A stretch of 64,000 nt of DNA from the human T2T-CHM13v2.0 reference genome, Homo sapiens: assembly GCF_009914755.1 (NCBI RefSeq), contig NC_060927.1. One strand, 5' to 3'. Within the stretch, counting starts at the first letter, position 1; each line of letters starts with the position of its first letter. Positions 26,255-26,818 of the stretch are shown here, piece after piece. Position numbers and translations under genes: made by a program. The notes beneath the pieces are model-generated. The model searched no databases and was not told where the DNA came from. It saw only the letters and a list, made by a program, of their open reading frames with translations.

Positions 26255-26818
26255 TCACTGGAACCTGGGAGGCGGAAGTTGCAGTGAGCCAAGATCACAC
26301 CACTGCACTCCAGCCTGGGTGACAAGAGCAAGACTCTGTCTCAAAAAAAGAAAAAAAAAAGATCCGGGGGAGGAGCCAAGATGGCCGAATAGGAACAGCT
26401 CCCGTCTACAGCTCCCAGTGCGAGCAACACAGAAGACGGGTGATTTCTGCATTTCCAACTGAGCTACCGGGTTCATCTCACTGGGGAGTGCCAGACAGTA
26501 GGTGCAGGACAGTGGGTGCAGTGCACCGTGTGCTAGCAGAAGCAGGGCAAGGCATCGCCTCACCCAGGAAGCATAAGGGGTCAGGGAATTCCCTTTCCTA
26601 GTCAAAGAAATCGGTGACAGACAGCACCTGGAAAATCGGATCACTCCGACCCTAATACTGCGCTTTTCCAACAGGCTTAAAAAACGGCACACCAGGAGAT
26701 TACATCCCGCACCTGGCTCGGAGGGTCCTACGCCCACAGAGTCTCCCTCATTGCTAGCACAGCAGTCCCAGATCAAACTGCAAGGAAGCAGTGAGACTGG
26801 GGGAGGGGCGCCCGCCAT
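26255..26818 (-). CDS. L1 ORF0 (antisense ORF of primate L1 5'UTR), open for 187 codons and running into the neighbouring Alu; translation unproven
   Basis: [36 protein letters not shown] matches the ORF0 N-terminus; Kozak GCAATGG; the two known ORF0 donors are present after nt 106 (26713) and nt 191 (26628). Confidence 0.6.

What the first reader, a model, noticed from the sequence alone, without database searches (positions are those of the whole stretch)
26255..26818. Open, extended L1 ORF0 with a phase-0 donor that would fuse in frame to DCAF1 E126
Seen: ORF1 and ORF2 of this L1 carry several stops and frameshifts, yet the antisense ORF0 is open for 187 codons from a strong Kozak ATG (26818, GCAATGG) and points in the DCAF1 sense direction. 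The two canonical ORF0 donors (after nt 106 and 191) are phase 1 and phase 2, so they are out of frame with the next DCAF1 exon. A third donor, TGG|GTGAGG (last exonic base 26564), falls after exactly 255 nt = 85 codons (..LTPYASW|). The next DCAF1 acceptor (14348) is phase 0. Known: L1PA antisense promoters make chimeric transcripts and ORF0-exon fusion proteins; L1HS ORF0 stops at 71 aa, before this donor. Inference: a primate-specific isoform could replace DCAF1 aa 1-125 with an 85-aa Cys-rich ORF0 peptide while keeping the rest of the receptor. The out-of-frame donors could instead give initiation at DCAF1 M155 (GCTATGG). Caveat: longer ORF0 frames may be common in L1PA3-5 copies, so openness alone does not show selection.
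Basis: partly seen in the sequence, partly recalled or inferred. Interest (0 to 1): 0.85.

Follow-up and report, generated by a model that had tools for sequence, protein, structure and literature searches.

The report
Ordinary L1PA4 antisense ORF0 in DCAF1
The open antisense reading frame and its in-frame splice donor are really there, but they are standard inherited features of this old LINE-1 family, and nothing I could read shows that a DCAF1 fusion protein is made from them.

Summary
These include the 187-codon minus-strand ORF (26818-26255), the strong Kozak ATG, and donors after nt 106, 191 and 255 (phases 1, 2, 0). The DCAF1 acceptor at 14348 is phase 0 and opens codon E126, and ORF1 and ORF2 are broken.

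None of this is special to the locus. The element is a catalogued full-length L1PA4 (26366-32543). The last 37 codons of the ORF lie in a flanking Alu. In 68 other copies taken from the same genome, 54 carry the GT donor in phase 0, 26 (38%) also keep the ATG and at least 85 open codons, and 17 stay open past the L1 5' end.

The long frame is a family trait. A 13-nt spacer type made up 62 of 100 listed hits; a 12-nt type made up 36 and gives the classic 71-aa ORF0. With one donor in each phase, an in-frame fit to any exon is guaranteed.

The element's own decay rate predicts an open ORF0 with P about 0.6. dN/dS is about 0.8.

DCAF1/VPRBP is missing from two L1 chimeric-transcript catalogues, and RefSeq has no exon in the L1.

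Verdict: ordinary. The fusion is possible on paper but unsupported.

The parts
26366..32543 (+). Full-length but decayed L1PA4 element, antisense to DCAF1, in the intron between exons 33559-33672 and 14211-14348
   Evidence: The 5' end GGGGGAGGAGCC starts at 26366 and the poly(A) ends near 32543. The 6178-bp length equals the hg38 row chr3:51455920-51462098 + L1PA4 full-length, closest gene DCAF1, in Lanciano 2024 Table S2. The hg19 RepeatMasker row in Pinson 2022 Table S1 gives L1PA4, 4.1% substitutions, consensus positions 1-6152.
26366..27400 (+). L1 5'UTR, 1035 bp (long type), with 27 CpG left. It holds the presumed antisense-promoter region.
   Evidence: The ORF1 ATG is at 27401. The promoter position is inferred from the literature: antisense-promoter activity lies within the first 600 bp of L1HS and L1PA2-8 5'UTRs (Criscione 2016).
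26255..26818 (-). ORF0-type open frame of 187 codons. Codons 1-150 and the start of codon 151 are L1 (26818-26366); the rest is flanking Alu.
   Evidence: 49-52 of the first 65 residues are identical to six 71-aa ORF0 copies from the same genome.
26707..26715 (-). Donor 1, CAG|GTGCGG. Last exonic base 26713, nt 106, phase 1.
   Evidence: 7 of 9 consensus matches; U1 duplex -7.2 kcal/mol.
26622..26630 (-). Donor 2, CAG|GTGCTG. Last exonic base 26628, nt 191, phase 2.
   Evidence: 6 of 9 matches; -6.8 kcal/mol.
26558..26566 (-). Donor 3, TGG|GTGAGG. Last exonic base 26564, nt 255, phase 0.
   Evidence: 6 of 9 matches; U1 duplex -9.8 kcal/mol; only 2 of the 749 GT sites between 26818 and 14349, this one included, pair this strongly or better. 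The homologous GT lies in phase 0 in 54 of 68 paralogues.
26062..26360 (+). Alu whose poly(A) tail abuts the L1 5' end. On the DCAF1 strand it reads antisense, with a pyrimidine tract plus AG near 26336 and a CAG|GTGTGAG donor near 26084.
   Evidence: sequence reading. The Alu assignment and the splice-site reading are my own, from recalled knowledge of Alu exonization.
14211..14348 (-). DCAF1 coding exon, codons 126-171. Phase-0 acceptor (tatag|GAGGGA). Contains M155.
   Evidence: Hub annotation.
33559..33672 (-). DCAF1 coding exon, codons 88-125. It is the normal upstream partner of the 14348 acceptor.
   Evidence: Hub annotation.
27401..28417 (+). ORF1 remnant, in one frame, with 4 premature stops (codons 49, 102, 109, 112).
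28481..32302 (+). ORF2 remnant with at least 2 stops and 3 frameshifts.

Best explanation
This is the antisense side of the 5'UTR of an ordinary, fixed, decaying L1PA4 retrotransposon in a DCAF1 intron.

The element inherited from its family a long ORF0 frame with no stop before the L1 5' end, and three GT donors at nt 106, 191 and 255. The frame is still open here because 255 to 450 nt of neutral sequence often escapes a stop, not because of selection.

If the antisense promoter fires, the known mechanism would apply: transcription starts upstream of the ATG, and one of the donors splices to the next DCAF1 acceptor. I find no sign that this happens at a level any catalogue has picked up. The fusion isoform remains a paper construct.

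Shown: the anatomy, the phases, how common the traits are in the family, and the absence from the catalogues. Inferred: neutrality, and no or negligible expression.
For: Family-wide traits:
- I examined 68 other copies from the same genome. 29 were chosen by similarity to ORF0 (analysed). 27 further copies were chosen by similarity to the upstream 5'UTR only (analysed; 2 of its 29 were duplicates of the first set). 12 came from the first pattern hits on contig C1.
- 54 of 68 have the GT donor in phase 0, 26 of 68 also have the ATG and at least 85 open codons, and 17 of 68 stay open for 150 codons or more.

Two ORF0 types:
- The pattern search found 2779 hits genome-wide and 0 for the reversed control. 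Of the 100 listed rows, 62 have the 13-nt spacer (the long frame, as here), 36 have the 12-nt spacer, and 2 have other lengths (counted by me from the listed coordinates).
- The 12-nt type gives the 71-aa ORF0 in 6 of 8 sampled copies.

Neutral expectation:
- 9 disruptions in 4839 nt of ORF1+ORF2 give P(open) of 0.62 for 255 nt.
- Pairwise dN/dS against 15 open, ungapped paralogues has a median of 0.81.
- The ORF0 stretch is 88-94% identical to its best 39 matches. The adjacent upstream stretch is 95-97% identical to its own best 39.

Expression:
- No DCAF1 or VPRBP in the 10 supplementary files of Criscione 2016.
- The L1 is in Pinson 2022 Table S1 but has no row in Table S2.
- DCAF1 occurs only in the methylation table of Lanciano 2024.
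- No paper links DCAF1/VPRBP with the L1 antisense promoter or ORF0 in a way that bears on this.
- The hub's RefSeq table has no exon in 26255-27400.

Base rates: Pinson 2022 found most L1 chimeric transcripts unspliced, with splicing evidence for 44 of 1509. Criscione 2016 quotes 57 fusions from about 3200 ORF0 loci.
Against: - Donor 3 looks strong. Its U1 duplex is -9.8 kcal/mol, and only 2 of the 749 GT sites in the interval, itself included, pair this strongly or better. By this crude measure it beats all 9 annotated DCAF1 donors in the window.
- The ORF0 ATG would be the first AUG for any start within 206 nt upstream.
- The acceptor at 14348 is the one DCAF1 pre-mRNA already uses across the same interval.
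- The L1 promoter is only partly methylated where it was measured: 0.53 in 2102Ep and 0.65 in MRC5. It was not recovered in the other 10 lines.
- Old L1PA subfamilies do produce antisense transcripts. About 17% of L1PA1-7 5'UTRs did so in brain and glioma.
- The catalogues I could read cover ESTs, brain and glioma, and a few cell lines. They do not cover germline, embryo or placenta.
Confidence: 0.85

Rival explanations
1. In hypomethylated cells (early embryo, germline, placenta, tumours) the L1PA4 antisense promoter fires. Donor 3 splices to 14348, and a hominoid-specific protein is made with 85 ORF0 residues in place of DCAF1 residues 1-125.
For: The frame is exact. The donor is strong by U1 pairing. 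There is no upstream AUG within 206 nt. Methylation is partial in an embryonal carcinoma line. ORF0-exon fusions are an established kind (citing passages).
Against: Every feature used to argue for it is generic to the family, and the frame fit is automatic with donors in three phases. The locus is absent from the two chimeric-transcript catalogues I could read and from the RefSeq models (hub table). Spliced chimeras are rare among L1 antisense transcripts (44 of 1509). Two upstream donors and an Alu acceptor about 230 nt downstream compete with this path. There is no sign of constraint on the peptide.
Confidence: 0.06
2. The antisense promoter is weakly active here but gives only non-productive RNA. 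These would be unspliced read-through into the Alu, or transcripts spliced from donor 1 or 2 (stops at residues 74 and 81), or through an Alu exon. At most this adds transcriptional noise, or an N-terminally truncated DCAF1 started at M155.
For: Most L1 chimeric transcripts in Pinson 2022 are short and unspliced at their 5' end. The out-of-frame outcomes were computed. The antisense Alu has a pyrimidine tract plus AG near 26336 and a CAG|GTGTGAG donor near 26084. M155 has a good context.
Against: This L1 has no chimera row at all in 11 brain and glioma samples, although unspliced chimeras were scored there. Downstream re-initiation after a 74- or 81-codon ORF is inefficient (established knowledge, not tested here).
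Confidence: 0.15

Closest known systems
LINE-1 ORF0, the 71-aa (some reviews say 70-aa) antisense ORF of L1HS and young L1PA 5'UTRs with two internal splice donors (Denli et al. 2015). I know this paper only through citing papers and recall.
   Same: Same ATG and Kozak context. The first 65 codons are collinear, with 49-52 identical residues. Donors 1 and 2 are at nt 106 and 191, as in 6 of the 8 sampled short-type copies; a seventh keeps the same phases at nt 106 and 188.
   Different: A 13-nt instead of a 12-nt spacer after donor 2 shifts the frame past the TGA that ends the 71-aa form. The frame therefore runs to the L1 5' end and takes in a third donor, in phase 0. The reviews I read mention only two donors.
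L1 antisense-promoter chimeric transcripts (LCTs), for example L1-BCAS3 and the UVRAG transcript that starts in an L1
   Same: Same required layout: a full-length L1PA element with its 5'UTR, antisense to and inside an expressed gene, with donors facing a downstream exon. The element is listed among 9123 antisense-promoter-containing L1s (Pinson 2022 Table S1).
   Different: No transcript evidence was found for this locus (hub table). The named examples are supported by ESTs or junction reads.

Membership tests
L1PA4 LINE-1 element | Full-length L1 architecture: 5'UTR, ORF1, ORF2, 3'UTR and poly(A) | tested here: met
   26366-32543. ORF1 and ORF2 remnants are in the expected order and a poly(A) tail is present.
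L1PA4 LINE-1 element | Subfamily assignment by RepeatMasker | tested here: met
   I did not run it myself. Two published tables call this element L1PA4, one with 4.1% substitutions. Its identity with the window element rests on the equal length (6178 bp), the strand and the host gene.
L1 ORF0 locus | Antisense ORF in the L1 5'UTR that starts at the homologous ATG in a strong Kozak context | tested here: met
L1 ORF0 locus | Two splice donors inside the ORF | tested here: met
   GT donors at nt 106 and 191, homologous to those of short-type copies.
L1 ORF0 locus | Length of about 71 aa, ending inside the 5'UTR | tested here: not met
   187 codons. The frame is the family's long variant.
L1 ORF0 locus | Transcribed from the antisense promoter and translated | not testable with these tools
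   No RNA, CAGE, Ribo-seq or proteome data are on hand.
L1 chimeric transcript / ORF0-exon fusion | Splice junction observed from the L1 5'UTR (antisense) to a host-gene exon | tested here: not met
   Absent from the Criscione 2016 supplements, from Pinson 2022 Table S2 and from the RefSeq exons in the hub table. This is absence from catalogues, not from raw reads.
L1 chimeric transcript / ORF0-exon fusion | Donor and acceptor in the same phase, with the frame open up to the donor | tested here: met

The most novel reading that the evidence does not exclude
The L1PA4 antisense promoter in this DCAF1 intron fires in hypomethylated cell states. It uses the strong phase-0 donor at 26564 and the constitutive acceptor at 14348. 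The product is a hominoid-specific DCAF1 whose first 125 residues are replaced by 85 ORF0 residues.

More broadly, long-type L1PA ORF0 carries one donor in each phase. Several hundred still-open copies could then fuse in frame to any downstream exon, which would be a wider fusion capacity than the two-donor, 71-aa picture in the reviews.
Probability: 0.05. Interest if true: 0.45.

Novelty: already known. Interest (0 to 1): 0.15.

Why it matters
DCAF1 is the substrate receptor of the CRL4 ubiquitin ligase, which HIV Vpr and Vpx hijack (recalled knowledge). A primate-specific N-terminal variant would be of interest if it existed. The evidence here says the locus is an ordinary old LINE-1 and needs no special follow-up.

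The useful by-product concerns the whole family. Older L1PA 5'UTRs carry a long ORF0 frame with donors in all three phases. A frame match between ORF0 and a host exon should therefore never be taken as evidence by itself when screening for transposon-derived isoforms or antigens.

Tried and rejected
- Earlier findings of the scan were not open.
- Denli 2015, Speek 2001 and Matlik 2006 are not held. I could not check whether the long ORF0 form, the third donor or this locus appear in the original ORF0 tables.
Its main text does not name DCAF1 or VPRBP.
- One paper search failed on a term format.
- Searches for DCAF1/VPRBP together with L1 chimeric transcript, antisense promoter or ORF0 returned 0, 1 and 2 papers. 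All were reviews judged from their titles; I did not read them.
- The U1-duplex and consensus-match scores are crude stand-ins for a trained splice-site model, which was not on hand. I use them only to say that donor 3 is plausible.
- The dN/dS test uses 15 pairs that were required to be open and ungapped. It ignores CpG hypermutability and measures both lineages, so it is weak. It shows no constraint but cannot exclude mild constraint.
- I considered whether the 187-codon length itself is remarkable. It is not: 17 of 68 copies run past the L1 end, and the length is then set by whatever flank follows.
- I made no protein-database, fold or complex searches. They could not bear on whether the isoform is expressed.

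Full report
**1. What is in the sequence**

The minus strand holds an ATG-to-stop ORF of 187 codons at 26818..26255. Its ATG sits in GCAATGG.

Three GT donors lie in it:
- CAG|GTGCGG after nt 106, last exonic base 26713;
- CAG|GTGCTG after nt 191, last exonic base 26628;
- TGG|GTGAGG after nt 255, last exonic base 26564.

Their phases are 1, 2 and 0.

The annotated DCAF1 coding exons upstream add up to 375 nt. The exon that starts at 14348 therefore opens in phase 0 with codon 126, a glutamate, and M155 lies in GCTATGG.

The 106- and 191-nt pieces run into stops at residues 74 and 81.

ORF1 (27401-28417) has four premature stops. ORF2 has at least two stops and three frameshifts.

**2. What the element is**

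L1 homology on the ORF0 strand ends at 26366, where the + strand begins GGGGGAGGAGCC. The poly(A) tail ends near 32543. That gives 6178 bp.

Two published tables list a full-length L1PA4 on the + strand in DCAF1:
- hg38 chr3:51455920-51462098, which is 6178 bp (Lanciano 2024 Table S2).
- hg19 chr3:51489936-51496088, with 4.1% substitutions and consensus positions 1-6152 (Pinson 2022 Table S1, the list of L1s that keep the antisense-promoter region).

I take these rows to be the window's element.

The 5'UTR is 1035 bp long. The last 37 codons of the ORF lie outside the L1, in an Alu whose poly(A) tail abuts the L1 5' end. So the figure of 187 codons is partly an accident of the flank.

**3. Is the long open frame with a phase-0 donor special? 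No.**

The window's own genome can be searched, and I took three samples of other copies:
- 29 copies chosen as most similar to the 255-nt ORF0 piece (analysed).
- 29 copies chosen as most similar to the 5'UTR stretch upstream of ORF0, so not selected on the state of ORF0 (analysed). Two of them repeat loci of the first set.
- 12 copies that are simply the first long-type pattern hits on contig C1.

That makes 68 distinct loci. The results were:
- 54 have a GT at the homologous third-donor position in phase 0 with the ATG.
- 26 (11 + 10 new + 5) also keep the ATG and at least 85 open codons.
- 17 stay open for 150 codons or more, that is, through the L1 5' end into whatever flank follows.

The stops that close the other copies recur at the same codons (25, 61, 85, 88). 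I read these as decayed CGA codons.

**4. Why the frame is long**

I searched for a pattern that spans the end of the classic ORF0. It has 2779 hits in the genome and none for the reversed control.

Among the 100 listed rows, by my count from the coordinates:
- 62 have a 13-nt spacer, as the window copy does;
- 36 have a 12-nt spacer;
- 2 have other lengths.

Eight sampled 12-nt copies give the classic ORF0. Six end at codon 71, one at codon 70, and one is broken earlier. In them the GTGAGG donor lies at nt 254 or thereabouts, behind the stop.

The one-base difference moves the frame past that TGA. The long frame and its third donor are thus the normal state of the more numerous, older-looking 5'UTR type.

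One consequence follows from arithmetic alone. Donors at 106, 191 and 255 nt cover all three phases, so some donor is in frame with any downstream exon. The fit to DCAF1 exon 14348 is not a coincidence that needs explaining.

**5. Is there any sign of selection?**

The element's own decay is 9 disruptions in 4839 nt of ORF1+ORF2. This predicts that 255 nt stay undisrupted with P = 0.62 and 453 nt with P = 0.43. That agrees well enough with the 38% and 25% seen in paralogues.

Pairwise dN/dS between the window's 85 codons and 15 open, ungapped paralogues has a median of 0.81. This is a weak test, but it shows no constraint.

The ORF0 stretch is 88-94% identical to its best 39 genomic matches. 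The adjacent upstream stretch is 95-97% identical to its own best 39. So ORF0 is not the better-kept part.

**6. Could the fusion still be made?**

On paper, yes.
- Donor 3 pairs well with the U1 5' end, at -9.8 kcal/mol. Only 2 of the 749 GT sites between the ATG and exon 14348, donor 3 included, pair this strongly or better. By this crude measure it is stronger than the nine annotated DCAF1 donors in the window.
- No AUG lies within 206 nt upstream of the ORF0 AUG.
- The acceptor at 14348 is already used across the same interval.
- The L1 promoter was 0.53 methylated in 2102Ep and 0.65 in MRC5, and was not recovered in ten other lines.
- According to passages I read, L1PA2-8 elements show antisense-promoter activity at the same place as L1HS (Criscione 2016). 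About 17% of L1PA1-7 5'UTRs gave chimeric transcripts in brain and glioma (Pinson 2022).

Against it:
- Most such transcripts were unspliced. Splicing evidence existed for 44 of 1509.
- 57 fusions were reported from about 3200 ORF0 loci (Criscione 2016 quoting Denli 2015).
- Two upstream donors compete with donor 3. So does an antisense-Alu acceptor near 26336 with its own donor near 26084.

**7. Direct look-ups for this locus**

- DCAF1 and VPRBP do not occur in the 10 supplementary files of Criscione 2016, which list 988 genes. Only DCAF16 and DCAF8L2 matched the search term.
- In Pinson 2022 the element is in Table S1. Table S2 lists 1571 chimeras from 3 brains and 8 gliomas. It is held uncut, and I read its format. 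It has neither the gene name nor any coordinate near the element.
- In Lanciano 2024, DCAF1 occurs only in the methylation table among the 9 files held. File 4 was cut when stored.
- The hub's RefSeq table lists no exon between 14348 and 33559 in any of 42 transcripts.
- Searches for DCAF1 with 'L1 chimeric transcript', VPRBP with LINE-1 and 'antisense promoter', and DCAF1 with ORF0 gave 0, 1 and 2 papers. All were reviews by title, and I did not read them.

Not seen: Denli 2015 (not held), the supplements of Adami 2025 (closed), and any raw RNA, CAGE, Ribo-seq or proteome data.

**8. Comparison with what is known**

The locus works, if it works at all, like an L1 ORF0 / antisense-promoter chimera locus, which is a described kind (passages).

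- As an ORF0 locus it meets the tests for start codon, homology and two donors. It differs in length because it belongs to the long-frame type.
- As a chimeric-transcript locus it fails the one defining test that could be looked up, an observed junction.

The reviews I read speak of two donors and 70 or 71 aa. Whether the original paper already describes the long form and the third donor I could not check.

**9. Verdict**

I give 0.85 to the neutral-relic reading. Interest is 0.15.

Noticed in passing
genome-wide; loci L061-L080: L1PA 5'UTRs fall into two ORF0 types that differ by one base in the spacer after donor 2. The 13-nt type made up 62 of 100 listed hits and has a frame open to the L1 5' end with the third donor inside the ORF. 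The 12-nt type made up 36 of 100 and has a 71-aa ORF0 with the third donor behind the stop. The long type thus has one donor in each phase.
   Followed up: partly
loci L002-L080: Closed copies stop again and again at the same codons: 25, 61, 85 and 88. This looks like CGA-to-TGA decay at CpG sites. The third donor varies among CGG, TGG and CAG before GTGAGG for the same reason.
   Followed up: partly
window 26062-26360: An Alu abuts the L1 5' end. On the DCAF1 strand it reads antisense, with a long pyrimidine tract plus AG near 26336 and a CAG|GTGTGAG donor near 26084. This is the usual make-up of an exonizable Alu. It supplies the last 37 codons of the 187-codon ORF.
   Followed up: no
window 472-33672, DCAF1 exons: All six coding exons from 33559-33672 downstream in the window start in phase 0, and their lengths are multiples of three (114, 138, 513, 102, 159, 180 nt). 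Skipping any of them, or entering at any of them, keeps the frame.
   Followed up: no
L070 and L071 (contig C1, about 12.45 and 12.74 Mb): Two L1 copies have identical broken ORF0 translations, which probably reflects a segmental duplication.
   Followed up: no
window 26564-26818 versus 26840-27140: The ORF0 stretch is 88-94% identical to its best 39 paralogous matches. The stretch just upstream is 95-97% identical to its own best 39. Faster CpG decay in the ORF0 part would fit this, but I did not measure it.
   Followed up: no
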